A stretch of DNA of 64,000 nucleotides from an uncultured Ignavibacteriales bacterium (GCA_964544635.1 CAZJCK010000004.1:1790-65789), one strand, 5' to 3'. Positions 34,146-64,000 are shown, counted from the first letter of the stretch. Notes: generated by a model not told the origin, from the letters alone. Made by a program: numbers and translations.

Positions 34146-34174
34146 TTGACTGCATGGGCAGGAAAGTATATTTT
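34146..34174 (+). promoter_or_regulatory. candidate sigma-70-type promoter of the cytochrome c gene
   Basis: TTGACT (34146-34151) followed by TATATT at a 15-nt spacing or TATTTT at a 17-nt spacing. It is about 85 nt upstream of ATG 34258. Confidence 0.35.
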
Positions 34175-34257
34175 TCAACGACTGGAAAGAAGACCATTTT
34201 TTTAGTGTATAACTAACACAATCGGTAATTGTGAGAGGTACAAGAGAGGTAATGACC

Positions 34258-47680: not shown

Positions 47681-47709
47681 ATAATACCCATATGGCGAGA
47701 TAAAGTCAA
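47681..47709 (-). promoter_or_regulatory. near-consensus sigma-70-type promoter of the GH35-like/ggt genes
   Basis: The minus strand reads TTGACT (47709-47704), exactly 17 nt, then TATTAT (47686-47681). It is about 50 nt upstream of ATG 47623. Confidence 0.5.
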
Positions 47710-47797
47710 CCCAATTTAGCTAACCGCATGATGCTCTTGTGCTTACAGCGGCGACCTAACAGGGCTGCTCAAGTCTACATTTCTTTTTCGCGGGGAC

Positions 47798-47825
47798 AAA
47801 AAAGCCCCCGCCGAATGGCGGGGGC
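47798..47825 (-). terminator. rho-independent terminator of the T9SS-sorted protein gene
   Basis: GCCCCCGCC-gaat-GGCGGGGGC perfect stem. On the minus strand it is followed by TTTTTT. It lies 26 nt after the stop at 47851. Confidence 0.7.
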
Positions 47826-47850
47826 TTCGATTACTCTGTGCGTAAGCTGA

Positions 47851-48759
47851 TTACTTCAGAAGCATCATCTTCCTGGTATCAACATGCTCGCCGGCAGTCA
47901 GCTTATAGAAATAGATACCACTGGCAACACTGCCGCCGGACTGATCGGTACCATCCCACTCTACTTTGTAGGTGTTGGCATCCAGCGGGGCGTCGAGCAG
48001 GGTATTAACCTTCTGTCCGAGCACATTAAACACATCGAGGCGTACCCATTCGCGTGACGGTACGGAGAACTCGATCGTCGTGGTCGGGTTGAAGGGGTTC
48101 GGATAGTTCTGGCTCAGGCTAAAGCTGTTCGGTACAGCGCCGCCGGTCGCGGTCGCACTCGAAACGTCGGCAATCGTAATAGAGCCCCCCGGGCCATACG
48201 GCCAGACCGGCTTGAACCCTTGTGGCGGGTTAACTTTGTTAATGAACGTCCAGACCGAGTTGGCGTTGAACTGGTTGGTGTCGATTACGATGACATCAGA
48301 GGTCGACCAGGTCGGATCGACCGAGAAATGGTACGTCGCAATCAGCCGGCGACCGGAAGCATCGCCGGGAGCGATACCAAATAGGCGCGCTCCGGCGAAA
48401 TAGAAACGTTTGTTGGCATTGGTGGTGGCAAGACTACCGTCTTCAAAATAGCCGACCGCCAGATCAAACCAGTCGTCTTCAATGACGGCCGGGGAGCCGG
48501 CGGAGTCGAGAACGAGGAGTGCCGGATTGGGTGAGTTGTTCCATGTAAATCCACAATTCATGCCCTTCAGGGAGTCATCAAAAAACGCCCACAGCTCCAG
48601 CTTGAATGTGTACTTACTGGAGCCGGCATCCGGCTGATCACCGGGCACCAGCACGAGGTCGACGGTATCGGTAATGCCGAAGTCGGGCTGCGCCAGGGCA
48701 CTGCCGCCGGCAAACAGCATCAGGCCGAGCAGCGCGGCGAGAAATACTTTACCTTTCAT
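47851..48759 (-). CDS. secreted protein with a T9SS type-A C-terminal sorting domain and a cohesin-like beta-sandwich body
   Basis: Inside ORF 47851..48795. ATG 48759 (MKGKVFLAALLGLMLFAGGSALA) has GGAGG upstream. The C-terminal 90 aa ...LSQNYPNPFNPTTTIEF...GIYFYKLTAGEHVDTRKMMLLK are a textbook Por_Secre_tail. The cohesin-like call for the body is by eye only. Confidence 0.85.
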   Translation of the reverse strand: MKGKVFLAALLGLMLFAGGSALAQPDFGITDTVDLVLVPGDQPDAGSSKYTFKLELWAFFDDSLKGMNCGFTWNNSPNPALLVLDSAGSPAVIEDDWFDLAVGYFEDGSLATTNANKRFYFAGARLFGIAPGDASGRRLIATYHFSVDPTWSTSDVIVIDTNQFNANSVWTFINKVNPPQGFKPVWPYGPGGSITIADVSSATATGGAVPNSFSLSQNYPNPFNPTTTIEFSVPSREWVRLDVFNVLGQKVNTLLDAPLDANTYKVEWDGTDQSGGSVASGIYFYKLTAGEHVDTRKMMLLK

Positions 48760-48933
48760 TCTATGTATGCCTCCATAGCAAAAAAAATTGTCCACGTTAT
48801 AACTTCATCTTTCCTCAAACAAATACGATAACAATAGTCGTTAACCGTTCCTCCTTCTCAAAGTTCCCCTAGATACACTAAGTTGGCTATCTCAATAGAC
48901 GTTCTTATCCGTGCGTACGTTTGCCGCCATAAA

Positions 48934-48962
48934 ATAATAGCTGAGGCAAGAATACGAGTCAA
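48934..48962 (-). promoter_or_regulatory. near-consensus sigma-70-type promoter upstream of the T9SS-sorted protein gene
   Basis: The minus strand reads TTGACT (48962-48957), exactly 17 nt, then TATTAT (48939-48934), implying a leader of about 170 nt. The -35 element sits inside the palindrome GAGTCAAT-aagag-ATTGACTC (48956-48976). Confidence 0.45.
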
Positions 48963-48983
48963 TAAGAGATTGACTCAATCTGC

Positions 48984-49031
48984 AAAAAACACGAGAAATG
49001 CGAACGGTTCACTAAACCGTTCGCATTTCTC
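48984..49031 (-). terminator. rho-independent terminator of the S8 protease gene
   Basis: GAGAAATGCGAACGG-ttcactaaa-CCGTTCGCATTTCTC, a perfect 15-bp stem. On the minus strand it is followed by GTGTTTTTTG. It lies 50 nt after the stop at 49081. Confidence 0.7.
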
Positions 49032-49080
49032 AATTCCGTCACAATGGCCCGGTTGCGGCCGTTATTGGTCTTACTTCAGA

Positions 49081-51456
49081 TTATGGACCGAACAGGAAGT
49101 CGGTCAGGCAGGCAAGATCGATCGGATCCACAATCGTATCCATGTTACAGTCACCGCCAACCGGGTCCGGAGTGGGGCCATTGTCGAAAAGGAAGTTGAC
49201 CATAAAGGCCAGATCGATCGGGTCCTTTACACTGCCGTCACAGTTGGCATCGCCGAAGTCACAGGCGTTGACAACAACCTCCCCGGCCTGCGTTATCGGC
49301 CAGTAGTCGCCGTAAATGGTCGAAATAAACGCCTTCTTGGTGCCTAACTGGGTGACGGTATCGATGGGCACCGATCCACCCGCGCTGCTCGCGCCTATCT
49401 TGAAGCGCAGCTTGACGATAGCACCGGTATCCGGCAGCAGGTAGGTCGACTCGCCCGGGCCGCTCGAGGAAAGCAGGAGCGAATACTGCTTGGTAAAGCC
49501 GGAGGCGAGGTTGAAGTCGATATCGAAAAAGTCTTCAGTTCGCAGGCCCTCAACCGAGAAGGCCGAATCGGTGTCAAAACCAACATCGATGCTGTTCGGG
49601 AATTCGAAGACCAACTGAACCGACTTGACCGGCACCGTATTGTTCAGGTAAATCGGCATTTCAACGATGTCACCGAGGCCACCTTCGACAGTCGTGAAGA
49701 CCAGCGTGTCGGCCTGCGCCCAGATGTAGTTGACCAGTCGCTCCTCACCCATCCCGAGCGGGTGACCGTCATCGATAGCAAGGTTCACGGAGTACACACC
49801 CGGTTCGGTATAGACAAACTGCGGATTCTGTACGATCGAGCTGTCGCCGGTGCCGAAATCCCAGATCCACGAGACCGGAGAATTCGGCGACTGATCCGTG
49901 AAATTGACCGTCAACGGCACATTGCCGTCGGTGACGTCGGAAGTGAATTTGGCATTGGAGAGGCTGCTCAGGGCAGTAAAGGCGTTAATCCGCCCGGAAC
50001 CAAGACGCCCGGTGTAGATCGGGTCGTTGATGCCATCAATGTTGTCGGTGGTGGCGATAATGATCGAGTCGACCTGGGCACGGGTCAGCGACGGCATCAT
50101 TGACTTGATCAGCGCGGCGAGGCCGGCTACCATCGGCGAGGCCATTGAGGTACCGCCAAGCGTCGCTGTTGTCGGGCTGTACTGGAACGAGTAGGTGGAG
50201 AGAATGGATGAACCCGGCGCCGAGACATCGACCCAGATGCCGAAGTTAGAGAAGCCGGACCTTATGTCCGACGAGGTGGTGGACGCCACCTGCAACAGGG
50301 CCGGGACCGCCGAGGTGTAACCGTCGGGGCAATCACAATTGTCGTTGCCGGCCGCCTTGACGACCGTGACACCGTTGGCGATCGCATTGTTCATGGCAGC
50401 GATCACCGTTGAACTGCCGCCACCGCCCCAGCTGTTGTTGAGAATGTCCACGCCCATCATGGTGGCATAGTCCATAGCAGTAGCGATATTGTTGCTGTTG
50501 AGTAGACCAAGACCATCGGAGGCCCGGCTGGCGCCGGCTCGCAGGGCCATAATGCGGACTCCGCCGAACGAGCGATGACCACCATACCAGCCACCGGCCG
50601 CGCCGGTAACATCGACCAGGTTATTGTTCATGGCGGCAATGATGCCGCTGACGTGCGTGCCGTGTCCGCCAAAGTCGTTGGGATCGGGATCGGGCGCACT
50701 GCCGTCCTCGCCCGGCACGACCGGCTCGCCAATTCCTGTCATGAAGTCGTAGCCGATCAGGTCGTCGATAACACCGTTGCCGTCGTCATCGATGCCATTG
50801 ATGTCGTCGGTGTCGAGAACATACCCGTCACCGTCGATGTCTTCCCCCGGGTTTACCCAGGTATTGCTATTGAGGTCGGAGTGGGTCCAGTTATAGCCGC
50901 CGTCAATCACGCCGACGACGATCTCCATCGAGCCGGTTTCGATATCCCAGGCATTGTAGAATTCCGGGTCTGGCCCCGGCGGCTCCATTGCCCACTGGTT
51001 AGACCACAGCGGATCGTTGGGCGTCGCCAGTTGCGGAATGGCCCAGACCGGTTCGGCCATGCGCACATTCGGATCCTGCGACAGGGCATCGACGACATCC
51101 TGTACCGGGATGTCTTCAGGGAATTGCAGCTCATAGAAACGCGACAGATCTTTCATCCCTGAATTGACAGCCGGCCGTTCATTGTTGTATGGGAAGACCG
51201 CTCGATAGGCGGCGACATCGAATTGCTGCATGGCAGCATCGAAGCTCGCAACACCAAAGCTGGGCGCCCCCGATGCCGCTTTGCTGACATTGTTCAGACG
51301 GACATTATCCTCAAACTGAACGGTGACCAATCCGGGGATGATAGTCGCCTGGGGCTGCTCGCCATTGGGATTGTAGACAGCCGAGGCTGATGTCGACAGG
51401 ACTGTCAGCAACAGCGCCAGGCAACCGACCGCTACGGTTGTTCGGCAGATAGTCAT
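49081..51456 (-). CDS. secreted S8 (subtilisin-family) serine protease with PKD, cohesin-like and dockerin-like C-terminal modules
   Basis: Inside ORF 49081..51465 (GTG). I prefer ATG 51456 (MTICRTTVAVGCLALLLTVLSTSASA) because GGAG lies 8 nt upstream. The catalytic triad contexts are VGVIDGG, GHGTHVSGIIA and GTSMASPMVAG. The PKD module has ...PLTVNFTDQS...WDFGTGD...YTEPGVYSVNL.... The tail is GDANCDGSVKDPIDLAFMVNFLF...GDCNMDTIVDPIDLACLTDFLFGP. Confidence 0.9.
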   Translation of the reverse strand: MTICRTTVAVGCLALLLTVLSTSASAVYNPNGEQPQATIIPGLVTVQFEDNVRLNNVSKAASGAPSFGVASFDAAMQQFDVAAYRAVFPYNNERPAVNSGMKDLSRFYELQFPEDIPVQDVVDALSQDPNVRMAEPVWAIPQLATPNDPLWSNQWAMEPPGPDPEFYNAWDIETGSMEIVVGVIDGGYNWTHSDLNSNTWVNPGEDIDGDGYVLDTDDINGIDDDGNGVIDDLIGYDFMTGIGEPVVPGEDGSAPDPDPNDFGGHGTHVSGIIAAMNNNLVDVTGAAGGWYGGHRSFGGVRIMALRAGASRASDGLGLLNSNNIATAMDYATMMGVDILNNSWGGGGSSTVIAAMNNAIANGVTVVKAAGNDNCDCPDGYTSAVPALLQVASTTSSDIRSGFSNFGIWVDVSAPGSSILSTYSFQYSPTTATLGGTSMASPMVAGLAALIKSMMPSLTRAQVDSIIIATTDNIDGINDPIYTGRLGSGRINAFTALSSLSNAKFTSDVTDGNVPLTVNFTDQSPNSPVSWIWDFGTGDSSIVQNPQFVYTEPGVYSVNLAIDDGHPLGMGEERLVNYIWAQADTLVFTTVEGGLGDIVEMPIYLNNTVPVKSVQLVFEFPNSIDVGFDTDSAFSVEGLRTEDFFDIDFNLASGFTKQYSLLLSSSGPGESTYLLPDTGAIVKLRFKIGASSAGGSVPIDTVTQLGTKKAFISTIYGDYWPITQAGEVVVNACDFGDANCDGSVKDPIDLAFMVNFLFDNGPTPDPVGGDCNMDTIVDPIDLACLTDFLFGP

Positions 51457-51743
51457 GGATCTCACTCCAACACGATTACTGGTGATTTATTGACAATTCT
51501 CTTCTCTCAGACAGGACGCACCGTGCCAACCGAATGTTTGCAGCAATCGCCACCCTCAGTCTGTATCCCTTGGTTATGCTGTCGGCCGGGTCATGGTTAG
51601 ACCTTATCGTCGTACACCTTCGGTAGATTGCCGGTCAGAGACAGGTACCGCTGCAACACGCGAACCGACGGGCGACCGATTTGCGGCAGATGTACCGATG
51701 GTGGAATACACCTAAATATAAGGGATTAGCCTGATTATCCAAG

Positions 51744-51777
51744 AAAAAACCGCCCGCTCTAATCTAAGAGCGGGCGG
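51744..51777 (-). terminator. rho-independent terminator of the BNR-repeat protein gene
   Basis: CCGCCCGCTCT-aatcta-AGAGCGGGCGG, a perfect 11-bp stem. On the minus strand it is followed by TTTTTT. It lies 54 nt after the stop at 51831. Confidence 0.7.
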
Positions 51778-51830
51778 CTATTCATCTATATCGCTTCACG
51801 ATCAGCAGGCTGACCGCAAATCTCAATAGC

Positions 51831-54800
51831 TTACGGACACGGGACCGGACCGGCGCCACCTGCGAACAGGAAGTCCACAAAGGCAGCAAGGTCAATCGGG
51901 CCGGCGCTTGTGCCGTCGCCGTCAAAGTCGGCTTCTTCCGGACAGACCGGACCAGAACCACCTGCGAACAGGAAGTCCACAAAGGCAGCAAGGTCAATCG
52001 GGCCGGCATCAATACCGTCACCGTCAAAGTCACCGGTCGTACCAATACAGCAGCCAGTGCTGAGGTTGGCCTGGTACCAGGCTTGCGCATCGTCAAAGGA
52101 AGCCTGAACATCAGCGTCCGTACCGTTCTGGATGGTAATGAGGACGGTTCTGAAGCTCAGGGTGTCACCGATGTTGAGCGAGGCGTTCTTCGTGAACACC
52201 ATGGCCGAGTGCAGATCGACGAACAGCGAATCCGGATCGGGCGAGCTAAACGTCTCGAACGCAACGGAAGTCACCATACGATCGTACATCTGACCGGCTT
52301 CGAAGCCGGAGACGTTCAGCACGTAAGTGGCGTTGTCAGCGGTGTAGGCCGACAGACCAGCCTGGTCACCACCGAGGTAACCAAGGGCGCCGTAACGAGC
52401 GTCGTTATCCTGGCACTCAGTCGTGTCGTCCTGGTTGTATTCGCCACCGAACTGCCAGATGATACCGCGGGTATCATCGAAACCGGAACCGTTGTCGACA
52501 GCGGAGTCGGCCGGGATATCCCAGTCGATCGCTTCACCGATCAACAGACCGGAACGGGTGCGAGTGTCGCACAGGGTCAGGCTCAGTTCCTGCAGAATGT
52601 AGTTGCCCACGCTGACGCCGGCGCCGCCACCGGAGGTCGGGGCGTACCAGGTCTTGGTCAGGCAGATACTGGAGTCGTTGGTGAAGAACTCAGCCACGTA
52701 TTTCTCGTAGCTGTCACCAGCGTTACCGGTTTCGTTGGACGGACCGGTGTGGCCGCGCGGACGCAGACCGTTGTCGCTGAGCCAGCCGTCACCGAAGATC
52801 GACCAGTTCATGACAGTATCAGTACCGTCAACCCAACCGACCACCGGGGTACCATCGTACAGGTAAACCGTAGCCAGAGAATCACATTCAGTAACGTCGC
52901 CGGCATAGTCCATGGTCACCGAGTCGGCGCCCTGGTTACCGAAGTTACCGGCCGAGTTCACGACGAGATCAACAACGCCGGTCGAGATGGTGTCGAAGAC
53001 CGGGGCGATGACAGTGTCAGCAACCCAGTATTCGAGTTCCAGCGTATCCGGCGAGCTGGCCGCGTTGTGGACAAATTCGAGGAAACCGGCCAGGTAAACG
53101 ATCGTACCAGGCGAGTTCACGATACCACCAGTGTTAAAGCTGATCGTACCGGTTTCCTGGTTACCAATACCCGACGGAACAGCACCGTCGAAGTTGGCGC
53201 CGGTGGCGAGCCAGCCGGACGGACCGGCGGTTTCCACGGCATTGATCGAATATGTCAGAGGCTCGTTACCGAGGTTTTCAATAAGTACGTCTTTGTCGGC
53301 CTGTACGCCATGCTTGGTCCAGTTCGGGAAACCGATCGAGGTCGGGTTCACGCTGAACTGCGAGGCGCGGACCGGCTCGACACAGGCGAGGCGGAACCAG
53401 GCGACATTGGAGAGCGCCCAGGTACCTTCGGTCTGCACCGAACCACCCGGATCACCGTCCTGAATGTACTGGACATCCAGGTAATCGTCGCCGGCATATG
53501 AACCGTCGACATCGACGTAGCTGGCCTGCGACCAGTTTTCACCGACCTGCTGGGTGTGTCCGAAGCGGGTCATGGACGGCCAGTGGTCAGAGAAGCACGG
53601 GCCACCGGTACCGGTCGCGGAGTCACAACCCGGCGTGCGGGAATTGGTGACGTTACGCGACTCGTCCCAGGTGATACCGTTGTCATCAGACACCGACACG
53701 TACAACTCACCGTTGGCAGCGCCACCGAAGTCACCATCGGCAGCACGGGCGGCACAGTCGTCTTCGACACCACGCGGGATGTCGTTAAACTGGACCCACA
53801 GACAGTAGAGCTTACCATCACATTCGCCCAGCTGCATCTTCGAGAAGTTCAAATTCCAGACACCGCTGTTACACTCGGTTTGATCCCACTGACCGTTGTA
53901 GATCGTACGGATCGAGCCAACGTCGGACGCCCAGTAGAACAGACGGCCGCGGAACAGACCGCAGTCACCGGTCGCGTCGACCGAACAGGTGCCCGGCCAT
54001 TCGCGAGCGCCCCAGGCAATCGACACTTCGTCGTCGCTGCGGATGAGCACGGAGAGATCGATGTAGGCGCGGAAGCCGTCTTCGTCACGCACGTACTGCG
54101 TAATGTTCTGGCGCGGATTGAAGGTTACGCCACCGTCGTCAGAGGTAAACAGATAAACATCGTTATCCTGCTGCGCGATGAGCGCACCGTCGTTGTTCGA
54201 ACAGGTGTCGCAATCGCCAACTTTGGGAATGTTCGCCATGAAAGCGATCGCAACCTTCTGGGTGGTACGGGAGGCCGAGATATCCTGCGACAGCGTAAAG
54301 TTGGTGTCGAGTACACGCGGCGGGTAATCCCAGGTACCGGCATTGTCAACGCCAACCTTACGGAAGTAGTACATGAAGCTCGGATCGCCGGCCTGGCCGT
54401 TGTCAGTCGTCGAGGCCGCAATCACGTGGGTCACCGGCGTAGCGCCGGTTTCCTGGTAGGCGATAGCGGGCCAGATGGTCGACTGGGCAGTCGGCCCTTC
54501 GGCGCCAAAGCCACCCAAGTACTGCTGCACAGAATCCGGAACACGCGAGTTCTTCGTAAAGGTCTGGAAGTGCTCGAGGAAATCCCAGTAAATATGGGTC
54601 GAGTTCCGTGTGCCCGGGTTGTTGTGACCACCGATGACGACGCGGTTGTCAGTGGTGACATCCGCTACGACATAACCGGCGTAGTCGCCACCCGCCTGAA
54701 CGGGGACGTCGCCGGCAAATGAGCCGTCATCAGCTTTGTAAAAGTTATAACGATAGCGACGGTCCGAACCGAAGGCGGCTTCGGAAGGCATCCACATCCA

Positions 54801-55148: not shown

Positions 55149-55645
55149 CCATTGCTCCTTTCGAGAATCCTGAATAGTTCCCAACTAGATTTTTCCGTGA
55201 CTTTTCGTCTCACTCCCGAGAGACGCATTCGGAAAGTTAGAGGCTTCGTCCGCCATCCATCACGGATGTGAATGGCTACCTCTTCGGATTCGGTTACTCC
55301 TTCTTCCAGTTCACCTCCCTTCGTTCGTCCATACTCTGCATAGGCAGATTCCTCTTGTGGACAGTGTTCTGTTGTTGTGCTTTAACGTTAGTCAAGAAAA
55401 CAGCTTTGAAGTAAGCCCAACCAATTCCACGTTTAATTCGTTCAGCGTTCCCGGTCAGAGAACTAGACAATGGTAGCACGAGGTATGCAGCGAACGCTCA
55501 CACTTTCGCGCATAAAAGTACGCGGGAAATAAGGGAACGCCTGAAGGCCATCCCCTCCACGCATCAGTATTTTGCACGTAGACCAAGATTCGCTGGTCAG
55601 TACTTGTTGTAGACATTAAAACCCATCACCGGGGTTTTCGCCCTA

Positions 55646-55674
55646 TATATAATTGGCATGCCTGTATTTGTCAA
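55646..55674 (-). promoter_or_regulatory. near-consensus sigma-70-type promoter far upstream of the BNR-repeat protein gene
   Basis: The minus strand reads TTGACA (55674-55669), exactly 17 nt, then TATATA (55651-55646). It lies just downstream of the preceding terminator and implies a leader of about 490 nt. Confidence 0.45.
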
Positions 55675-55740
55675 GCAATTTAACCTTTCCAAGAACCTGC
55701 CGAAAGGTGTTTTTCACCCCGGGCATGCGTCCTGAGCGGC

Positions 55741-55770
55741 AAAAAAAAGAGGCCGCCAAACGGCGGCCTC
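55741..55770 (-). terminator. rho-independent terminator of the giant adhesin gene
   Basis: GAGGCCGCC-aaac-GGCGGCCTC perfect stem. On the minus strand it is followed by T8. It lies 32 nt after the stop at 55802. Confidence 0.7.
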
Positions 55771-55801
55771 GTATCGCATCACAGCCCGAATTACGGCGCA
55801 A

Positions 55802-58800: not shown

Positions 58801-61618
58801 TGTCGACAAAGGTCGCGCCGGCCGGCAGGGCGGTGGTTGACAAGAGCGGCGTATCGCCGTCGCCATCCGAGGCGATCACCCCAAAACTGAGGGGCAGGCC
58901 CTCGCTGGTCGATTGCGGGCCAATCGCGGTCAGGACCGGCGGTTCGTTGACGTCGTTTATTGTAATCGTGACAACTTCACTGTCGACCGCCGTCGGCACA
59001 GCACCGTCGGTGGCATAGAATGTCACCTGGTAGACACCGGCGTCGGTGTAGGTCGGGGTCCAGTCGAAGGCGCCGGTACCGTCGCCGTTGTCGACGAAGG
59101 TCGCACCGGTCGGCAGGGCCGAGGCGCTCAAGATCGGCGTATCGCCGTCGCCGTCGGTGGCACTGACCGGGATGTTGAGCGGCACCGCTTCATCCGACGT
59201 CTGGTCGCCGATGGTCGTAAGGATCGGCGGCAGGTTCTGGTTGGTGACGGTAATGGAGACGACCTCGGAGTCGACCGCCGCCGGGAAGGCCGGGTCGGTC
59301 GCGTAGAAGGTCACCGCGTAGATGCCTGAATCGGCAACGGTGGTTGCCCAATCAAACGTACCGGTACCATCACCATTATCGGTAAAAGTCGCCGCACCCG
59401 GCAGCGTGCTGGTGCTGAGGACCGGGATCTCGGTATCACCGTCAGTGGCACTGACGCCGAAGTTGAGTACGTTGCCCTCGAGCACTGCCTGATCGCCAAT
59501 TGCGGCCAGAACCGGGAGCTGGTTGACGTTGTTTACGCTTATCGTCACCTGCTCGCTGTCGACGGCAACGCCATCGCTGGCGTAGAATGTCACAGCGTAG
59601 GTGCCGGAATCGGCGAAGGTCGGCGTCCAGTCAAAGGTGCCGGTACCGTCGCCATTGTCGAGGAAGGTGGCGCTGCCCGGCAGGAGGGTGGTGCTCAGTG
59701 CCGGGATAGTACCGTCAAGATCGCTTGCGCTGACGCCGAAGGTCAGGTTGACGTTTTCATCGGTCGTTTGATTGCCGATGGCGGCCAGCTCAGGTGCCTG
59801 GTTGCCGGCATCGGCCACCGTGATCGTCACCGTCTCCGAATCAGCAGCCGTGCCGTCGGATGCTACAAATATGACATCGTATGAACCGGCATCATCGAAG
59901 TCGGGCGTCCAGTCGAACGTACCGGTACCATCACCGTTGTCAGTGAAGATGGCCGTACCCGGCAGCGGCGACGCACTGAGCGCCGGATTGGTGCCGTCGG
60001 GATCGGAGGCGCTGACTCCGAAAGTTAACAGTGTGCCCTCGGTCGTACCCTGGGCGCCGATGGCGGCCAGGTTCGGGGTCTGGTTACCGGCATCGTTCAC
60101 CGTGATAGCGACCACCTCACTGTCGGAGGCGGCGCCGTCGGTAGCGATAAAGGTTACGTTATAGTTACCCGCCTGTGTAAAGTCGGGAGTCCAATCAAAC
60201 GTACCGCCGCCGGAACCATCGGGCGTGAAGGTTGCACCGGTCGGCAGGTTTTCAGCCGACACGGTGGGAGTAGTTTCATCCGGGTCGGACGAGCTGACCG
60301 CGAAGTTGAGATTTACATTTTCGGTCGTAGTTTGAGCACCGATGGCGGCCAGGACTGGAGACTGGTTGCCCGCTTCGGTGACCGTTATCACCACCTGTTC
60401 CGAGTCGACCAGTGACGGTGCGACGGGATCGGTAGCGTAGAAAATGACATTATACGTGCCTGCTTCGGTAAAGCCGGGCGTCCATGCAAAGTCGGCGGTA
60501 CCATCGTTGTTGTCGATGTAGGTCGCCGAGCCTGGTAGTGCGGAGCTCGTCATGACCGGGAAACCGCCGTCGGCATCGGAGGCGGATGCCGTGAAGTTGA
60601 GCGGTTGTCCTTCGACAACAGATTGTGAGCCTATAGCCGCCAATACAGGAGGTGTATTGGCTTCGTAGGTGTAAGCGTCGGCCAGCGTATTCGAGGCCAG
60701 GCCGGAAGCGCTGTTGGTCACCGTGACATCGGCCGTACCGGCGGTTGCCGCCTGGGTCGTGCCGGTGATTTCATACGGCGAGACGACTGTCACGTCGGTC
60801 AGGGCAGCCGAACCGACGACAACCGAGACACCTGCCGGGTCGAAGCCGGAACCGGTGATGGTAACATCGGTGCCACCGAGCGCCAAACCGGTGGTCGGCG
60901 TGATGTCGACCAGGACCGGCGCGACCGAACTGCTGGAGTTGGCCGTCACGATCGCCGAGTGCGGCGAATAGTTGCCCGAACCGTCTTCCGCGATCACCAC
61001 ATACTGGTACGAGCTGGCACCGTCAACCGTGGCATCGACAAAGAAGCTGTCAACCACTCCGGGGTCGGAGAGTTGACCGGCGGTATTGTCGATCCGGAAG
61101 AACGAACCGGTCGAGGTGCCCAGGCGCCGATAGACGTGCATTGTCTGGCCGGGCACATGATCCCATGAGACGACGACGGCCGATGACGAGATGGTGGTGG
61201 TGGTCAGGCCGGACGGTTGGCCGGGCCAGGATACCGTTTGCAGCAGAATATTCTCCTGCTGGAACGAGTTGTTCGGTATCGTCTTGTTCAGGTGGAAGCC
61301 TTCGGCGCGCGACGCATTGTAGAAGTAATAGTCGTACGGATTGCCGGGAGCTTCCGTGAGGTAATTCTGGAAATCATCGAACCAGTTACCGTCATCGTAA
61401 CCCGCGCCGGTCGAAGTTTCGATTCGAATCTCTTCATCGGTATCATCCAGGAAACCGAAGAACGAGATGTTGCCGTTTGGTGGTACGGTGAGGTCAGCGT
61501 TCTGGACGGTACCGAAAATCGATCCCTGAGCCGCTGCCGTTAGCGGAATAACCGCAATGGCAGTGACAGCCAGAACGCACAGTCTCACTAACCGCACCAA
61601 CTGTCTGTTCGTTTGCAC
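55802..61618 (-). CDS. giant secreted adhesin-like protein: FN3-like + IPT/TIG + about 16 cadherin-like/Ig-like repeats + dockerin-like C-terminus
   Basis: Inside ORF 55802..61651. I prefer GTG 61618 because GGAGG lies 7 nt upstream, giving the signal peptide (M)QTNRQLVRLVRLCVLAVTAIAVIPLTAAAQG. There are sixteen repeats of about 95 aa ending ...GTGTFDWTPDF(T/A)xAGxYxVTFxAxD.... The IPT-like segment reads ...ITPTTGLALGGTDVTITGSGF.... The tail is ...GDSDDDEVYTLNDVIIIAKHLY...CDVDRSGIVDPADLAYLVNYLYNYGPRPPQ. Confidence 0.85.
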   Translation of the reverse strand: MQTNRQLVRLVRLCVLAVTAIAVIPLTAAAQGSIFGTVQNADLTVPPNGNISFFGFLDDTDEEIRIETSTGAGYDDGNWFDDFQNYLTEAPGNPYDYYFYNASRAEGFHLNKTIPNNSFQQENILLQTVSWPGQPSGLTTTTISSSAVVVSWDHVPGQTMHVYRRLGTSTGSFFRIDNTAGQLSDPGVVDSFFVDATVDGASSYQYVVIAEDGSGNYSPHSAIVTANSSSSVAPVLVDITPTTGLALGGTDVTITGSGFDPAGVSVVVGSAALTDVTVVSPYEITGTTQAATAGTADVTVTNSASGLASNTLADAYTYEANTPPVLAAIGSQSVVEGQPLNFTASASDADGGFPVMTSSALPGSATYIDNNDGTADFAWTPGFTEAGTYNVIFYATDPVAPSLVDSEQVVITVTEAGNQSPVLAAIGAQTTTENVNLNFAVSSSDPDETTPTVSAENLPTGATFTPDGSGGGTFDWTPDFTQAGNYNVTFIATDGAASDSEVVAITVNDAGNQTPNLAAIGAQGTTEGTLLTFGVSASDPDGTNPALSASPLPGTAIFTDNGDGTGTFDWTPDFDDAGSYDVIFVASDGTAADSETVTITVADAGNQAPELAAIGNQTTDENVNLTFGVSASDLDGTIPALSTTLLPGSATFLDNGDGTGTFDWTPTFADSGTYAVTFYASDGVAVDSEQVTISVNNVNQLPVLAAIGDQAVLEGNVLNFGVSATDGDTEIPVLSTSTLPGAATFTDNGDGTGTFDWATTVADSGIYAVTFYATDPAFPAAVDSEVVSITVTNQNLPPILTTIGDQTSDEAVPLNIPVSATDGDGDTPILSASALPTGATFVDNGDGTGAFDWTPTYTDAGVYQVTFYATDGAVPTAVDSEVVTITINDVNEPPVLTAIGPQSTSEGLPLSFGVIASDGDGDTPLLSTTALPAGATFVDNGDGTGLFDWTPTFAQDGSYDVTFYAIDALDAGVADSEVVTITVLDAGNQPPVLDSIGDKSIAEGTLLAFTVTAGDADGTVPTLSTSALPTGAVFTDSTGEFAWTPDFTQAGSYDVTFFATDGAATDSEVVTISVTESGNQPPVIDSLGTLAVTEGNTLEVTITATDPEGSAVTISINTTLQNYTFVDNGDGTALLTYTPNFFDAGVDSLIIFARDDGTPQVTQTLRTAVVTNENNQAPVIEPVGPFTVEVNGLLEFTIEASDTTDQNPFNILFLSVVSLPPNATFTDNGNGTGSFRFTPQAGQEGSLGVQFLVVDEGTPQLSSQITVDIEVLAANQAPILAPIGPQVLTEGETVTLNLAATDPDGTTPFFDVTKLPRGAEFTDNSDGTAVFTWTPDFIQSGLHSVTFKALDGLASDKEVVLFQVADAGDQVPVFDTLPNPVVVEGTTVADTIYASDPDTLPVTIGVIEGTEPPEFTFTDNGDGTAEITMSPDFTMAGVYIVEVWVSDGTLADTTDMIVTYDEAGNQPPVINPRADTSITELKSLQFTMTATDVDGDIPQMTAGNLPLGADYTDLDDGSGFFNWVPNDTQAGVWNITFYAEDTAGVANGGVLDIDSTIVQITVIDTNRAPFVIEGTFSQQDTVAEGDTLVFVMRGIDPDSTVPSLTAVLQGTDSLADNMTFVDSGNGFGYLTFIPSYTQGAAPTPRRYNIDFQAVDELDPTLVSPVNSQLIRVFDVPQPPTIRVSEGTGPFTLDEGESWFSTVYIWDVDARPDSARLVNPPTNATLSFVALLGDSLVYNMSFSPNFAQAGTYSLTIEAFDPTFRISTEVVEFTVVDAGNQAPTIVNDPPLNKGAYLGLDNEVVIQAEDREGDSIMYSTSALAPNMSIVDDGNGTATLMFAPDSVQLGNSYDVTVTASDGVDSTVLIISYQVGVFMRGDSDDDEVYTLNDVIIIAKHLYRGGGLPDPWERCDVDRSGIVDPADLAYLVNYLYNYGPRPPQ
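56044..60649. repeat. coding tandem-repeat array (about 285-291-nt period, about 16 units) within the giant adhesin gene
   Basis: Recurrent near-identical stretches occur, for example ...GCCGGTACCGTCGCCGTTGTCGAC(A/G)AAGGTCGC... at about 58786 and about 59074 (288 nt apart). The central units (about 58.4-60.4 kb) are the most similar. Boundaries are approximate. Confidence 0.8.
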
Positions 61619-61686
61619 TACCAAACCTCCAGTCGTGAAGTAAACACGCACGTTTTTCCTAATCTTACATCCTCAACCAGGCGGCC

Positions 61687-64000
61687 TTATGGCGCCGGGA
61701 ACGTCCCGGTGCCGGCGGCGTTGGCCTGGTACGGCTTCCCGGCTCGCACCGGGAAGTTGGTGCCGAAGCCGACCGCGAACCGTGATTCATAGTTCTGCGA
61801 ACCGGCTACGAAATTATTCAAGGTGTTCAGCAGGCCCGGGACGTTGTCAATGACATCCTGCGCTACGCTGAACTGGTCTTCATACTCAAACGGAATCAGT
61901 ATGTAGTTAAAGTCGGTGGTGGCCGTCGTTATGATCGGCGAAGACACCGATCCCGGATCAGGCACCGAACCGGCGACACTGAAGACGGTCGCGGCGCGGG
62001 CGTTGATCTGGTAGACACCGCCGACGGTTACCGCGAAGTTGACACCGAAGCCGGCCGCGAACCGCGCCTCCCAGCTTTGCGAGGAAGCGTTGTAGTTGTT
62101 GGCCGTATTGACATTAGCCGTGCCGATGGCGGCGATGAGGCTGACGGCGTCGGTAATGCCGGTGTTTTCAAACGGTATGGCCACCAGGTTGAAGTCGGCA
62201 GTGGCCGTGGTTACCAACTGGTAATCATACTGACCCACACGGTTCGACACCAGCGAACGGTTGCCGTAGATGTCGACCGCTTCAACGACATAGAAGTAGT
62301 TGGTCGTGGTGTCGCCAACCACATCGGCGCCGTCGATATTGTTATCCGTAAAGCTTGTCGTAAATTCGTCGGTGACGCCGATCGAGTCGATGGCGCTCGG
62401 CGTGAAGTACGCCCGGGTGCCGCGATAAATCGTGTAATGATCGACATTCGTCGGCAGGCCGCTGGTATCGACAGTGGCGGCGCTCCAGGCAAGCTGGATG
62501 TCGTCGCCGGCGATGCTGATCGCCAGATCCGTAATCGCCTGCGGCGGGGCGGCGTTGACCGCCTCGATCGCCACCGTGTCGGGCGCCGAGGAGTCGATGT
62601 TGTCATCCACCACCAGCTCGAACTCGTAAATGCCGATCTCGTTCGGCGTGAAGGTCGGGCCGGCCGTCGTCGCACCGTTGAGGCTGGTCGACGGTCCGGC
62701 GACCTGGGTCCAGGTGTAGTTCAACGGATCGTTGTCGGGATCCGAGGAAGCGGTACCGTCGAGCGTTACCAATTGACCCAGCGGAATCTCGAATTGATCG
62801 GGACCGGCCTCGGCCGTCGGGGTACGGTTAGCGTCACCCACCGTAATCGTCACCAGTTCGCTGTCGGCGGCGAGGGTATCATCCTCAGCGATGAACAGTA
62901 CGTCAAAGGAACCGGCGTCGACAAAGCCGGGCGTCCAGTCGAAGGTACCGGAACCGTCGCCATTGTCGACGAAGGTGGCATTGCCCGGCAGGTTCTCGGC
63001 GCGCAGTGACGGTGTGTCTTCGGCGTCGGTGGCGGTGACGTCAAAATTCAAGTTGACCGTCTCCTGCGTACTGCGCGGCCCGATCGGATCGAGCACCGGC
63101 GGCTGGTTGCCGACTTCGTTGACGGTGATCGACACCGCTTCGCTGTCGGCAGCGCCGGCGCCGTCGGATACGTAGAACGTCACGCTGTAAACGCCGGACT
63201 CAATATAGCTCGGTGTCCAGTTGAACTCACCGGTGCCGTTGCCGTTGTCGACGAAGGTCGAGGTGCTCGGCAGCGTCGACGTCGTGAGCGTGAGCACGTC
63301 GCCGTCGATATCGGCTGCCGAGACCGGGATGGTCAGTTGCACCGCTTCATCGACCGACTGCGCACCGATAGTAGCGAGGACCGGGGCGTCGTTGACGGCG
63401 GTTACCGTGAACGTCGCCGGATCGGAGTCAAACAGGCTGCCCGGGTCGGTGGCGGTGAAGGTGATCGTCTCGCTGCCGTTCCAGTTGACATCCGGAATTG
63501 TGATGGTAGCGACGCGGTTGGCATCGATGCTGACCGTCAGCTCGGTTTCACCGGAGGTCGTCCAGGTCATTTCGGCGTCGGTATTATCAAGATCGCTCAC
63601 GAAATCGTCGAGCGTTATAGTCGCAAAGGCGGCGCCTTCCGCAATCGTCTGGTTCGGGATATCGGTGACAACCGGGGCGTCGTTGACGGCGCCAACCGTG
63701 AACGTTGCCGCATCGGCATCCGACAGTGCGCCCGGATCGGTGGCAGTAAACGTGATCGTTTCGCTGCCGTTCCAGTTGACATCCGGGATACTGATCGTGG
63801 CGACGCGGTTGGCATCGATGCTCACGGTCAGCTCGGTTTCGCCGGTCGCCGTCCAGGCGATGGTGCTGTCGGCGTTGTCGACATCGGACACGAAGTTGTC
63901 AAGCGCGATGGTCGCAAAGGTGGCGCCTTCGGCGATGCTCTGGTCGGGGATATCGGCAACAACCGGTGCGTCGTTGACAGCGGTCACGGTGAACACCGCC
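61687..64000 (-). CDS. large secreted repeat protein (5' end outside window): cadherin-like repeats, PKD-like and FN3-like domains, C-terminal tandem unknown domain
   Basis: ORF 61687..63996 stays open to the window edge. It has VNDAPVV...NWNGSETITFTATDPG 97-aa repeats and two ...F(N/D)WTP...YSVTF... repeats like the downstream gene. The PKD-like region reads ...LDGTASSDPDNDPLNYTWTQVAGP.... The FN3-like region reads ...HYTIYRGTRAYF...NYFYVVEAVDIYGNRS. Only 35 nt (or 68 nt using the preferred GTG 61618 start) separate it from the giant adhesin gene. Confidence 0.8.
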   Translation of the reverse strand, partial: AVFTVTAVNDAPVVADIPDQSIAEGATFATIALDNFVSDVDNADSTIAWTATGETELTVSIDANRVATISIPDVNWNGSETITFTATDPGALSDADAATFTVGAVNDAPVVTDIPNQTIAEGAAFATITLDDFVSDLDNTDAEMTWTTSGETELTVSIDANRVATITIPDVNWNGSETITFTATDPGSLFDSDPATFTVTAVNDAPVLATIGAQSVDEAVQLTIPVSAADIDGDVLTLTTSTLPSTSTFVDNGNGTGEFNWTPSYIESGVYSVTFYVSDGAGAADSEAVSITVNEVGNQPPVLDPIGPRSTQETVNLNFDVTATDAEDTPSLRAENLPGNATFVDNGDGSGTFDWTPGFVDAGSFDVLFIAEDDTLAADSELVTITVGDANRTPTAEAGPDQFEIPLGQLVTLDGTASSDPDNDPLNYTWTQVAGPSTSLNGATTAGPTFTPNEIGIYEFELVVDDNIDSSAPDTVAIEAVNAAPPQAITDLAISIAGDDIQLAWSAATVDTSGLPTNVDHYTIYRGTRAYFTPSAIDSIGVTDEFTTSFTDNNIDGADVVGDTTTNYFYVVEAVDIYGNRSLVSNRVGQYDYQLVTTATADFNLVAIPFENTGITDAVSLIAAIGTANVNTANNYNASSQSWEARFAAGFGVNFAVTVGGVYQINARAATVFSVAGSVPDPGSVSSPIITTATTDFNYILIPFEYEDQFSVAQDVIDNVPGLLNTLNNFVAGSQNYESRFAVGFGTNFPVRAGKPYQANAAGTGTFPAP
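63399..63980. repeat. two 291-nt coding tandem repeats (VNDAPV-type units), probably continuing beyond the window
   Basis: The exact 25-mer CGCTGCCGTTCCAGTTGACATCCGG occurs at 63471 and 63762 (291 nt apart), and the exact 23-mer GCGACGCGGTTGGCATCGATGCT occurs in both units. Confidence 0.85.

What the first reader, a model, noticed from the sequence alone, without database searches (positions are those of the whole stretch)
47681..64000. Candidate T9SS-anchored cohesin-dockerin-like surface display cluster (main candidate for a new system)
Five consecutive minus-strand genes encode large secreted proteins. Three of them end in a two-segment EF-hand-like module with the dockerin signature D-x-(D/N)-x-(D/S)-(G/x)-x-(I/V)-x-(D/x)-P-x-D-L-hydrophobic helix:
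- the S8 protease (GDANCDGSVKDPIDLAFMVNFLF / GDCNMDTIVDPIDLACLTDFLF)
- the BNR/Asp-box protein (GDFDGDGIDAGPIDLAAFVDFLF, twice)
- the 1,938-aa adhesin with 16 cadherin-like repeats (DSDDDEVYTLNDVIIIAKHLY / CDVDRSGIVDPADLAYLVNYLY)

The smallest gene (47851..48759) has no dockerin. Instead it combines a cohesin-like beta-sandwich body with a textbook T9SS type-A sorting domain. In Bacteroidota that domain directs export and covalent attachment to the outer membrane. The protease additionally carries a cohesin-like module.

Cohesin-dockerin pairs are established for Gram-positive cellulosomes, and scattered non-cellulosomal modules are known from genome surveys. To my knowledge, a T9SS-anchored cohesin scaffold displaying a protease, a sialidase-fold protein and a giant adhesin has not been described.

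Each of the four genes lying fully within the window has its own strong terminator. The promoters of the T9SS-sorted-protein and BNR genes, and that of the adjacent GH35-like gene, match the TTGAC(T/A)-17-TAT(T/A)(A/T)(T/A) pattern.
Basis: partly seen in the sequence, partly recalled or inferred. Interest (0 to 1): 0.8.

Follow-up and report, generated by a model that had tools for sequence, protein, structure and literature searches.

The report
T9SS-sorted cohesin with dockerin-tagged neighbours
An uncultured Zixibacteria genome carries a conserved four-gene block in which a small secreted protein with a cohesin fold and a type IX secretion tail sits beside a protease, a giant adhesin and an unknown protein that all end in dockerin tags; this is a cellulosome-style plug-and-socket kit, probably used for surface display rather than cellulose digestion.

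Summary
In six-frame translation of the 64 kb window, exactly six dockerin-like segments occur. They form the duplicated C-terminal tails of three consecutive genes: a 16-repeat adhesin, a 1,105-aa Asp-box protein and an S8 protease.

The next gene (302 aa) has a signal peptide, a roughly 180-aa domain and a T9SS type-A sorting domain that scores above the curated cut-offs. AlphaFold models of that domain and of the protease's extra module are confident. Foldseek matches both almost only to solved cohesins, and profile comparison shows the two modules are homologous.

The order adhesin, 1,100-aa protein, protease, cohesin-CTD recurs in dozens of Zixibacteriota species. Dockerins on different proteins of one genome resemble each other more than they resemble their orthologues. 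Their divergence also tracks that of the cohesins. Relatives carry 2 to 5 tandem cohesins plus the sorting domain, or a cohesin plus a dockerin.

Still inferred: actual binding, surface anchoring, presence of T9SS machinery, and how the dockerin proteins cross the outer membrane.

The idea is not new. A T9SS-CTD cohesin scaffoldin with dockerin enzymes, including an S8 peptidase, was inferred for Cloacimonadota in 2021. I rate this a new variant of a known kind, of moderate interest.

The parts
47851..48759 (-). G1: 302-aa secreted protein made of a signal peptide, a cohesin-fold domain and a T9SS type-A CTD
   Evidence: ORF. It is identical to database protein P0001. Domain evidence is given in the sub-parts below.
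48145..48690 (-). G1 cohesin-fold domain (residues about 24-205)
   Evidence: AF2 with a 47-sequence alignment gives pLDDT 89.9 and pTM 0.87. Foldseek against the PDB returns almost only type I, II and III cohesins; the best is 5lxv_A at E=5.7e-7, with target-normalised TM up to 0.74. hhalign to the protease module gives probability 96.2% and E=2.5e-9. The only PDB sequence-profile hit is a cohesin, at E=0.09. There is no Pfam hit.
47854..48123 (-). G1 T9SS type-A C-terminal sorting domain (residues about 213-302)
   Evidence: PF18962 scores 30.4 bits (cut-off 27) and TIGR04183 scores 36.5 bits (cut-off 23). The motif NYPNPFNP is invariant across the family.
48934..48962 (-). Sigma-70-like promoter of G1 (TTGACT-17-TATTAT)
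   Evidence: The pattern occurs 4 times in the window against 0.01 expected.
47797..47826 (-). Intrinsic terminator after G1 (10-bp G+C-rich stem, ATTC loop, T-run)
   Evidence: Read directly from the sequence. The automatic scan did not list it.
49081..51465 (-). G2: S8 serine protease with N-terminal propeptide, PKD, cohesin and dockerin modules (794 aa as ORF; 791 aa in the database entry P0121)
   Evidence: Peptidase_S8 at 1.4e-40, PKD_4 at 1.5e-10 and Peptidase_S8_N at 7.9e-8. The D/H/S catalytic motifs are visible in the sequence. The orthologous group is about 790-800 aa in Zixibacteria.
49267..49707 (-). G2 cohesin module (residues about 587-733)
   Evidence: Pfam Cohesin scores 22.9 bits against a 24.1 cut-off, E=1.1e-4. 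11 of 29 orthologues hit PF00963. AF2 gives pLDDT 89.5. The top 50 Foldseek hits are all cohesins; the best is E=3.5e-10, and TM to 1aoh is 0.81.
49084..49263 (-). G2 dockerin (two segments: GDANCDGSVKDPIDLAFMVNFLF and GDCNMDTIVDPIDLACLTDFLF)
   Evidence: 22.2 bits against a 22.9 cut-off. 23 of 29 orthologue tails hit Dockerin_1, best 8.3e-13. AF2 places two helices at the expected positions.
48992..49032 (-). Intrinsic terminator after G2 (19-bp stem)
51831..55148 (-). G3: conserved roughly 1,105-aa secreted protein of unknown function, with two Asp-box motifs and a C-terminal dockerin
   Evidence: ORF; start codon inferred from the AGGAG and ATG. The window protein has no Pfam family. Orthologues of 1,050-1,250 aa sit at the same position in other genomes.
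51855..52049 (-). G3 dockerin (two near-identical segments, GDFDGDG(ID/TS)AGPIDLAAFVDFLF)
   Evidence: My own dockerin HMM scores it at 1e-9. The family profile hits solved cellulosomal dockerins at E=1e-4. Orthologues carry the canonical GDVNGDGGTNVSDLTYLVDFLF.
55646..55674 (-). Promoter of G3 (TTGACA-17-TATATA), followed by a leader of about 490 nt
   Evidence: The element, with an upstream A-tract, is conserved in about 11-12 of 13 species.
51748..51779 (-). Intrinsic terminator after G3
55802..61651 (-). G4: giant adhesin-like protein with TIG, 16 Big_9/He_PIG/cadherin-like repeats and a dockerin
   Evidence: Pfam. 16 repeats by iterative self-search.
55817..55996 (-). G4 dockerin (first segment degenerate, second canonical)
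   Evidence: Dockerin_1 scores 26.7 bits, above the 22.9 cut-off, on the isolated tail.
55749..55770 (-). Intrinsic terminator after G4

Best explanation
This is a minimal, non-cellulolytic cohesin-dockerin display module of a Zixibacteriota bacterium.

Proposed mechanism, with each step marked shown or inferred:
1. G1 is exported by Sec. The signal peptide is shown.
2. The T9SS recognises G1 through its type-A C-terminal domain. The domain is shown; transport is inferred.
3. G1 ends up on the outside of the outer membrane, where it presents one cohesin-fold domain. The location is inferred by analogy with Bacteroidota type-A cargo.
4. The adhesin (G4), the 1,105-aa Asp-box protein (G3) and the S8 protease (G2) each end in a duplicated, Ca-binding dockerin. 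The dockerins are shown.
5. Each dockerin plugs non-covalently into a cohesin, either that of G1 or the second cohesin carried by the protease. This is inferred. A two-tier arrangement is therefore possible: G1, then protease, then adhesin or G3.

The expected result is a cell surface carrying an adhesin and a protease held by exchangeable plug-and-socket links, for attaching to and digesting proteinaceous particles.

The organism assignment rests on the named homologues and loci being overwhelmingly Zixibacteria.
For: Folds and homology.
- Both modules have a cohesin fold from confident models.
- The two modules are homologous.
- The protease module reaches Pfam Cohesin at near-threshold scores, and 11 of 29 orthologues match it.

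Dockerins.
- The six segments occur only in the three tails.

Sorting domain. It scores above curated cut-offs.

Conserved gene order, from species-representative genomes.
- 44 of 54 S8-cohesin-dockerin genes with enough downstream sequence are followed directly by a CTD gene.
- 40 of those 44 CTD genes encode fewer than 450 aa.
- 31 of 40 with enough upstream sequence are preceded by a dockerin gene.
- 27 of 29 of those have a second dockerin gene further upstream.
- The small CTD proteins that my HMM missed still align to the G1 cohesin family as a group (hhalign probability 92.8%).

Co-evolution.
- Dockerins of different proteins in one genome are 50.5% identical.
- Cross-protein pairs between genomes are 38.4% identical, and orthologous pairs are 44.0% identical.
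- 0 of 2000 permutations reached the observed within-genome value. This is the pattern expected if the dockerins share a binding partner.
- Dockerin divergence correlates with G1-cohesin divergence after controlling for the catalytic domain (partial r=0.42, p=5e-4), and with the protease cohesin (partial r=0.36, p=0.0035).

Family architectures. The G1-type cohesin forms 841 clusters at 50% identity. These include proteins with 2, 4 and 5 tandem cohesins plus the CTD, and many cohesin-plus-dockerin proteins. These are scaffoldin-like and adaptor-like layouts.
Against: - No binding was predicted or measured.
- G1's domain does not match Pfam Cohesin.
- No T9SS machinery gene lies in the window, and I could not scan a whole Zixibacteria genome.
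- The dockerin proteins have no CTD, so their route across the outer membrane is unexplained.
- In some Bacteroidota, type-A CTD cargo is released rather than anchored (my knowledge), so anchoring is not guaranteed.
- The whole region is syntenic, including housekeeping genes such as GH35, GGT, AnmK and SpoIID. Adjacency alone is therefore weak evidence of functional linkage.
- Concerted evolution could also come from gene conversion between neighbouring 3' ends.
- The Mantel control for phylogeny is only linear.
Confidence: 0.58

Rival explanations
1. Hitch-hiker export. G1 is a carrier rather than mainly an anchor. Its cohesin captures the folded, dockerin-tagged proteins in the periplasm. 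Its CTD then takes the complex through the T9SS translocon, giving CTD-less proteins a route across the outer membrane.
For: - The three dockerin proteins have Sec signals but no CTD.
- G1 consists of nothing but a cohesin and a CTD.
- In this protein set a C-terminus carries either a dockerin or a CTD, and almost never both.
- The pairing of a small cohesin-CTD gene with dockerin genes is conserved.
- From my own knowledge, the T9SS transports folded cargo.
Against: - No precedent for piggy-back transport through the T9SS is known to me.
- A 1,949-aa adhesin bound non-covalently would be a very large passenger.
- Everything listed in support is equally expected for a simple anchor.
- Other export routes, such as T2SS, were not examined.
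Confidence: 0.12
2. The dockerins do bind cohesins, but not G1's. Their partner is the protease's own cohesin, giving protease-centred complexes or chains, or cohesins encoded elsewhere in the genome. G1's cohesin-fold domain has a different ligand, and G1 sits here only because the region is syntenic.
For: - The protease module is the closer match to canonical cohesins.
- The G1 domain is invisible to Pfam.
- Synteny extends to unrelated housekeeping genes.
- Dockerin divergence also tracks the protease cohesin.
Against: - The partial correlation is at least as strong for the G1 cohesin (0.42 against 0.36).
- In L004 the adhesin is followed directly by the G1 orthologue, with no protease between them.
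- G1-type cohesins occur in tandem arrays with a CTD and together with dockerins. This is hard to explain unless they are dockerin receptors.
Confidence: 0.15
3. The dockerin-like tails are not protein-protein plugs. They are Ca2+-dependent stabilising or sorting tags, and the cohesin-fold domains are generic beta-sandwich spacers or glycan binders.
For: - Non-cellulosomal dockerin-like modules are widespread and mostly have no known partner (Peer et al. 2009, cited in PMC8542988; my knowledge).
- Three of the six segments deviate from the canonical 12-residue loop.
Against: - Within-genome homogenisation of dockerins on unrelated proteins and covariation with the cohesins are not expected for a stabilising tag.
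- Foldseek returns cohesins specifically, with only a handful of non-cohesin chains among the hits (integrin ectodomain chains and one adhesin CLIPPER domain).
- Multi-cohesin and cohesin-dockerin architectures occur in the family.
Confidence: 0.1

Closest known systems
Cellulosome-like complex inferred for Ca. Stygibacter (Cloacimonadota), Williams et al. 2021, PMC8542988
   Same: - It is a diderm of the FCB group.
- Signal-peptide enzymes carry C-terminal dockerins, including an S8/S53 peptidase.
- The cohesin-bearing protein has a T9SS C-terminal domain, proposed to attach it to the cell surface.
- The proposed role is not in cellulose breakdown.

   Different: - The Stygibacter scaffoldin is a 3,755-aa protein with tandem cohesins recognised by InterPro, plus CBMs. 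Here the CTD protein is 302 aa, has one cohesin that Pfam does not see, and has no CBM.
- The cargo here is an adhesin, an unknown protein and a protease that carries its own cohesin.
- The genes here form a fixed four-gene block conserved across a phylum.
- Both cases rest on in-silico inference only.
Single-cohesin anchoring proteins of Clostridium thermocellum (OlpA, OlpC) and ScaE of Ruminococcus flavefaciens
   Same: - One cohesin is joined to a cell-surface anchoring module.
- It tethers individual dockerin-bearing proteins or a scaffoldin.
- Solved OlpA and OlpC cohesins are among the best structural matches (3ul4_A and 4dh2_A).
   Different: - Anchoring in those proteins uses SLH repeats or sortase on a Gram-positive wall, not a T9SS CTD on an outer membrane.
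- Sequence identity is only about 8-18%.
- Their partners are glycoside hydrolases or scaffoldins of a cellulosome.
Adaptor scaffoldins (for example ScaA of Acetivibrio cellulolyticus, ScaC of R. flavefaciens)
   Same: One polypeptide carries a cohesin and a dockerin, as in G2 and in the 45 cohesin-plus-dockerin relatives. This allows layered assemblies.
   Different: G2 is itself an active-looking enzyme (an S8 catalytic triad is present), not a non-catalytic adaptor. The linker between its cohesin and dockerin is only a few residues long and contains an invariant Cys pair.
Non-cellulosomal cohesin and dockerin modules (Peer et al. 2009; Archaeoglobus fulgidus cohesin, PDB 2xdh)
   Same: Cohesin and dockerin modules occur outside cellulolytic organisms, sometimes in the same protein and often on peptidases. 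2xdh is among the structural hits.
   Different: Those modules are scattered and lack a defined anchor or a conserved gene cluster. Here there is a defined sorting domain, a conserved cluster and evidence of co-evolution.
'Planctosome' of freshwater Planctomycetes (Andrei et al. 2019, as cited in PMC8542988)
   Same: A non-canonical cohesin-dockerin assembly proposed for polypeptide degradation in a non-Firmicute.
   Different: It belongs to a different phylum and envelope, with no T9SS CTD. I did not read the primary paper.

Membership tests
Cohesin module (structural family; Pfam PF00963) | Flattened nine-stranded beta-sandwich (jelly-roll) fold | tested here: met
   G1 domain: AF2 pLDDT 89.9, with Foldseek hits almost exclusively cohesins. 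G2 module: pLDDT 89.5, with the top 50 hits all cohesins and TM 0.81 to 1aoh. Strand count and topology could not be inspected because no coordinates are returned.
Cohesin module (structural family; Pfam PF00963) | Sequence-profile match to PF00963 at the gathering threshold | tested here: not met
   G1 domain gives no hit. G2 module scores 22.9 bits against 24.1. 11 of 29 G2 orthologues match at E<0.01. G1 is linked only indirectly, by hhalign to the G2 module (96.2%) and a weak PDB cohesin hit (E=0.09). I therefore call it a divergent cohesin-fold subfamily, not a Pfam member.
Cohesin module (structural family; Pfam PF00963) | Ca2+-dependent binding of a dockerin | not testable with these tools
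There is no multimer tool. Only indirect support is available, from co-evolution.
Dockerin (Pfam PF00404) | Tandem duplication of a roughly 22-residue segment, each an EF-hand-like Ca loop followed by a helix | tested here: met
   Two segments lie in each of the three tails. AF2 places helices at 177-189 and 209-220 of the G2 fragment.
Dockerin (Pfam PF00404) | Profile match at the gathering threshold | tested here: inconclusive
   G4 tail scores 26.7 bits, above 22.9. G2 tail scores 22.2, below it. G3 tail gives no hit. Orthologues of all three are clear: 23 of 29 protease tails match, best 8.3e-13, and the G3 family hits PF00404 at 6.9e-10 and solved dockerins at 1e-4.
Dockerin (Pfam PF00404) | Canonical 12-residue loop with acidic or amide ligands at positions 1, 3, 5, 9 and 12 | tested here: inconclusive
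   By eye, the second segments of G2 and G4 fit (D-x-N/D-x-D/S-...-D9-P-x-D12). The first segment of G2 and both segments of G3 have one extra residue before the D-L. The first segment of G4 is degenerate.
T9SS type-A cargo | C-terminal domain matching TIGR04183 or PF18962 at the very C-terminus, plus an N-terminal Sec signal | tested here: met
   (both above cut-off; residues 219-299 of 302). The signal peptide MKGKVFLAALLGLMLFAGGSALA is read from the sequence.
T9SS type-A cargo | T9SS core machinery encoded in the same genome | not testable with these tools
   None of the window genes scanned with Pfam encodes it. No paper in the library links Zixibacteria and T9SS. Indirectly, CTD proteins are very numerous among Zixibacteria homologues.
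T9SS type-A cargo | CTD cleavage by PorU and covalent attachment to anionic LPS | not testable with these tools
   This needs biochemistry.
Cellulosome (sensu stricto) | Scaffoldin with several cohesins that integrates dockerin-bearing carbohydrate-active enzymes | tested here: not met
   G1 and G2 have one cohesin each. The cargo is a protease, an adhesin and an unknown protein. The adjacent GH35 has no dockerin. Relatives with 2-5 cohesins plus a CTD exist elsewhere. The system is therefore cellulosome-like in principle but is not a cellulosome.

The most novel reading that the evidence does not exclude
The small cohesin-CTD protein may be a T9SS export adaptor. Dockerin would then act as a detachable secretion tag. 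Folded dockerin-tagged proteins, such as the giant adhesin, the protease and the 1,100-aa protein, would be captured in the periplasm by the cohesin and carried through the T9SS translocon on its CTD. This would be a piggy-back route that extends the T9SS substrate range to proteins without a CTD.
Probability: 0.12. Interest if true: 0.85.

Novelty: new variant of a known kind. Interest (0 to 1): 0.5.

Why it matters
If binding is confirmed, the work would show three things.
- The cohesin-dockerin principle, best known from Gram-positive cellulosomes, serves as a phylum-wide surface-display device in Zixibacteriota, an uncultured but widespread sediment and soil lineage. There it would tether adhesins and proteases to the outer membrane through the T9SS.
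- Current domain libraries miss a cohesin subfamily of at least 841 clusters at 50% identity. Surveys that rely on PF00963 therefore undercount cohesins in the FCB group.
- The genome-specific dockerin variants offer natural orthogonal cohesin-dockerin pairs for protein engineering.

It also raises a concrete question: how do dockerin proteins without a CTD cross the outer membrane?

Tried and rejected
Attempts that failed or returned nothing:
- Exact look-ups of G1 and the GGT protein in the contig index found nothing.
- The word-indexed homologue search with the 220-aa cohesin-dockerin fragment returned nothing. The full-length protease worked.
A first alignment for it had misplaced the dockerin rows.
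The full-length S8 alignment worked.
- Direct BLASTP of the G1 domain against the protease module showed no similarity. Only profile-profile comparison did.
- Rfam found nothing in the window, including the long G3 leader.
- Peer et al. 2009 is not held in the library.
- Cluster look-ups gave no organism names.
- Literature searches for Zixibacteria with dockerin, T9SS or cellulosome gave nothing relevant.

Ideas considered and rejected:
- G5 as part of the system: it has no dockerin or CTD.
- G3 as a sialidase: the only support is short Asp-box matches.
- A mobile element or horizontally acquired island: base composition is uniform, and the region is syntenic with housekeeping genes across genomes.

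Full report
WHAT IS THERE. The last 16 kb of the window holds five minus-strand genes.
- G1 (47851-48759, 302 aa).
- G2 (49081-51465, 794 aa as ORF).
- G3 (51831-55148, about 1,105 aa from the ATG behind an AGGAG).
- G4 (55802-61651, up to 1,949 aa).
- G5 (61687 onward), the 3' part of a gene that runs off the window.

G1 to G4 start with Sec-type signal peptides. Downstream lie a GH35/42-like glycosidase and a gamma-glutamyltranspeptidase. The genes scanned in the rest of the window are ordinary housekeeping and regulatory genes, and none encodes T9SS machinery. G+C is even at about 0.54-0.63. Named homologues are overwhelmingly 'candidate division Zixibacteria / Zixiibacteriota', so the window most likely comes from a member of that FCB-group phylum. 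G1 is identical to a protein on a 93-kb NCBI contig.

CHECK OF THE OBSERVATION. A six-frame scan for the dockerin segment motif finds six matches in 64 kb. They lie in pairs at the C-termini of G2, G3 and G4 and nowhere else.

Pfam Dockerin_1 on the isolated tails gives 26.7 bits for G4 (cut-off 22.9), 22.2 for G2 and nothing for G3. G3's tail is nevertheless a dockerin by descent:
- A profile of 14 G3 orthologues hits solved cellulosomal dockerins (E=1e-4).
- Orthologues hit PF00404 with a best E-value of 6.9e-10.
- Orthologues read as textbook GDVNGDGGTNVSDLTYLVDFLF.

G1's C-terminus passes both curated T9SS sorting-domain cut-offs (PF18962 at 30.4 against 27; TIGR04183 at 36.5 against 23). 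G4 has exactly 16 repeats of about 95 residues. All four complete genes end in a strong hairpin and T-run. The promoter pattern TTGACW-N17-TATWWW occurs four times against 0.01 expected, and three of the four copies lie in front of GH35, G1 and G3.
- G5 has neither a dockerin nor a CTD.
- 'BNR/sialidase-fold' for G3 rests on two Asp boxes only. Pfam gives no hit for the window protein, and BNR hits 6 of 14 orthologues.

ARE THE 'COHESIN-LIKE' PARTS COHESINS? Pfam does not see G1's domain. BLASTP finds no similarity between it and the protease module. The structural and profile evidence is clear, however.
- An AlphaFold2 model of G1 residues 24-205, built with 47 homologues, is confident (pLDDT 89.9, pTM 0.87).
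- Foldseek against the PDB returns almost only type I, II and III cohesins (best 5lxv_A, E=5.7e-7; target-normalised TM up to 0.74).
- The only PDB sequence hit of the family profile is also a cohesin, though weak (E=0.09).
- The protease's C-terminal 222 residues, modelled with 29 orthologues (pLDDT 89.5, pTM 0.76), form a beta-sandwich followed by two helices at the dockerin positions.
- All of the top 50 Foldseek hits for that model are cohesins (best E=3.5e-10; TM 0.81 to the CipA cohesin 1aoh).
- Profile-profile comparison links the two modules (hhalign probability 96.2%, E=2.5e-9, 140 columns).
- The protease module is near the Pfam threshold (22.9 against 24.1 bits), and 11 of 29 orthologues match PF00963 at E<0.01.

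I conclude that both are cohesin-fold modules. G1's belongs to a divergent subfamily outside the current Pfam model.

CONTEXT IN OTHER GENOMES. Look-ups of four G1 homologues (31-40% identical) showed the same neighbourhood: giant adhesin, then a protein of 1,050-1,100 aa, then the S8 protease, then a small CTD protein, then GH35. All upstream proteins end in canonical dockerins.

A scan of species-representative genomes with the protease alignment gave 80 loci, mostly Zixibacteriota MAGs. I searched all their ORFs with HMMs built here for the two cohesin types, the dockerin and the CTD.
- 70 loci carry an S8-cohesin-dockerin gene.
- Of 54 with at least 1.3 kb of downstream sequence, 44 are followed directly by a CTD gene, and 40 of these encode fewer than 450 aa.
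- Of 40 with enough upstream sequence, 31 are preceded by a dockerin gene.
- Of 29 of those with more upstream sequence, 27 have a second dockerin gene further upstream.
- The 18 small CTD proteins that the G1-cohesin HMM missed still align to that family as a group (probability 92.8%, E=4e-7).

The caveat is that synteny here extends to unrelated housekeeping genes. Adjacency alone is therefore not strong evidence of functional linkage.

EVIDENCE FOR A SHARED PARTNER. In 27 genomes that have all three dockerin proteins, I compared dockerin identities.
- Different proteins within one genome: 50.5% identical on average.
- Cross-protein pairs between genomes: 38.4%.
- Orthologous pairs between genomes: 44.0%.
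- None of 2000 label permutations reached the observed within-genome value.

The homogenisation is visible by eye. The window lineage has (D/G)P(I/A)DL in five of its six segments, in all three tails (the first segment of G4 is degenerate), and its closest protease relative has DPVDL. L016 has IDLGDLSALVSYLT in all three, and L011 has DISDLTYYVDYMF. In cellulosomal dockerins the residues just before the helix (loop positions 10-11) are specificity determinants (established knowledge). The changes fall in that stretch.

Dockerin divergence between genomes also correlates with divergence of the G1 cohesin after removing the effect of the protease catalytic domain (partial Mantel r=0.42, p=5e-4). 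The same holds for the protease cohesin (r=0.36, p=0.0035). These tests are indirect. Gene conversion among neighbouring 3' ends, or rate heterogeneity not captured by a linear control, could contribute.

THE WIDER FAMILY. An exhaustive profile search with the G1 cohesin domain finds 841 clusters at 50% identity (405 at E<=1e-10). Among the 140 newly fetched of the 150 best-scoring proteins, the architectures include:
- 41 with one cohesin and a CTD, as in G1.
- 11 with two cohesins and a CTD.
- Two with four cohesins and a CTD (for example P0242, 894 aa).
- One with five cohesins and a CTD (P0241, 1,948 aa).
- 45 with a cohesin and a dockerin.

Some loci (L060, L061, L067) hold arrays of such genes. 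These are the layouts of anchoring scaffoldins and adaptor scaffoldins. They are hard to explain unless this domain receives dockerins.

MECHANISM. Most likely (confidence about 0.58), G1 is exported by Sec and then by the T9SS through its type-A CTD. It then displays one cohesin at the cell surface. The dockerins of the adhesin, G3 and the protease bind non-covalently, with Ca2+, to that cohesin or to the protease's own cohesin. That would allow a two-tier arrangement.
- Shown: the domains, their folds and homology, the conserved gene block, concerted dockerin evolution, and the family architectures.
- Inferred: binding, which cohesin takes which dockerin, T9SS transport and surface retention, and the biological role (attachment to and proteolysis of particulate organic matter).

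The main gap is that the dockerin proteins have no CTD, so their route across the outer membrane is unknown. This leaves room for the most novel reading, in which the cohesin-CTD protein carries them through the T9SS (probability about 0.12). The other rivals are that the dockerins use only the protease cohesin or distant cohesins (0.15), and that the tails are not plugs at all (0.10).

COMPARISON WITH WHAT IS KNOWN.
- Williams et al. 2021 (PMC8542988) inferred, for Ca. Stygibacter (Cloacimonadota), dockerin-bearing GH18, GH57, S8/S53 and C25 enzymes. [quoted passage not shown]
- Non-cellulosomal cohesin and dockerin modules (Peer et al. 2009) and the planctomycete 'planctosome' (Andrei et al. 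2019) are further precedents cited there.

I found no paper linking Zixibacteria with dockerin, cohesin or T9SS. What is different here:
- The anchor is a minimal single-cohesin protein whose cohesin subfamily is invisible to Pfam.
- The cargo is an adhesin, an unknown 1,100-aa protein and a protease that itself carries a cohesin.
- The four-gene block is conserved across a phylum.
- There is sequence evidence of co-evolution.

By function the closest analogues are the single-cohesin anchors OlpA and OlpC of C. thermocellum and ScaE of R. flavefaciens, with the T9SS CTD replacing SLH repeats or sortase. It is not a cellulosome in the strict sense, because there is no multi-cohesin scaffoldin and no dockerin-bearing glycoside hydrolase in this locus.

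VERDICT. Novelty is moderate: a new variant of a known kind. Interest is 0.5. The finding is solid and extendable and poses a concrete open question about export, but a specialist would not find it very surprising.

Noticed in passing
window 55149-55645 (minus strand); also the adhesin-to-G3 intergenic regions of L002, L007, L009, L012, L015, L025, L028, L031, L037, L044 and L060: The G3 promoter (A-tract, then CTTGACA-N17-TATnnT) is the best-conserved element of the 550-770-bp spacer between the adhesin and G3 genes in about 11-12 of 13 species. It leaves a leader of roughly 490 nt before the start codon. Rfam finds nothing there. The purpose of the long leader is unknown.
   Followed up: partly
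window 49240-49270 (G2 residues about 732-739); alignment A7: Two cysteines at the cohesin-dockerin junction of the protease (C-x-H-G-D-x-N-C-D-G) are nearly invariant (90% or more) across 30 orthologues. The second lies inside the first Ca-binding loop. They may form a disulfide staple. The linker between the cohesin and the dockerin is only a few residues long.
   Followed up: no
L060 9977-21072; L061 7219-20752; L067 201-11898; L063 5623-18090: Some Zixibacteriota have expanded the module. They carry tandem duplicate S8-cohesin-dockerin genes, two or three small cohesin-CTD genes in a row, 480-520-aa cohesin-plus-dockerin proteins, and 1,100-1,180-aa proteins with an internal cohesin and a CTD. 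L074 has a 471-aa protein with two cohesins and a CTD directly after the protease.
   Followed up: partly
window 34146-34174 (+) and 34231-34776 (+): The fourth perfect match to the strong promoter pattern sits in front of a small secreted protein with four CxxCH motifs, that is, a tetrahaem cytochrome c. A 176-aa cytochrome occupies the syntenic position in L001.
   Followed up: partly
window 61687-64000 (G5, partial): The adhesin-like protein upstream of G4 ends in two copies of an uncharacterised segment of about 120 residues (TTATADFNLVAIPFE... and TTATTDFNYILIPFEYE...) rather than a dockerin or CTD. Only 35 bp separate it from G4, so the two genes may be co-transcribed.
   Followed up: no
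window dockerins (49084-49263, 51855-52049, 55817-55996) and P0122: The window lineage has an unusual dockerin variant, with Pro at loop position 10 ('DPIDL' or 'DPADL') and, in three segments, a one-residue insertion. Its closest protease relative (80% identical) shares it. This may mark a lineage-specific switch in cohesin-dockerin specificity.
   Followed up: partly
Record titles of L009, L014, L021, L022, L029, L031 and others: Many TPA-assembled MAGs that carry this Zixibacteria-type module are titled 'uncultured Ignavibacteriales/Ignavibacteria bacterium'. Single loci are titled Deferrimicrobium, Acidoferrum or Calditrichaeota. These titles are probably placeholder or erroneous taxonomic labels, or reflect binning errors.
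   Followed up: no
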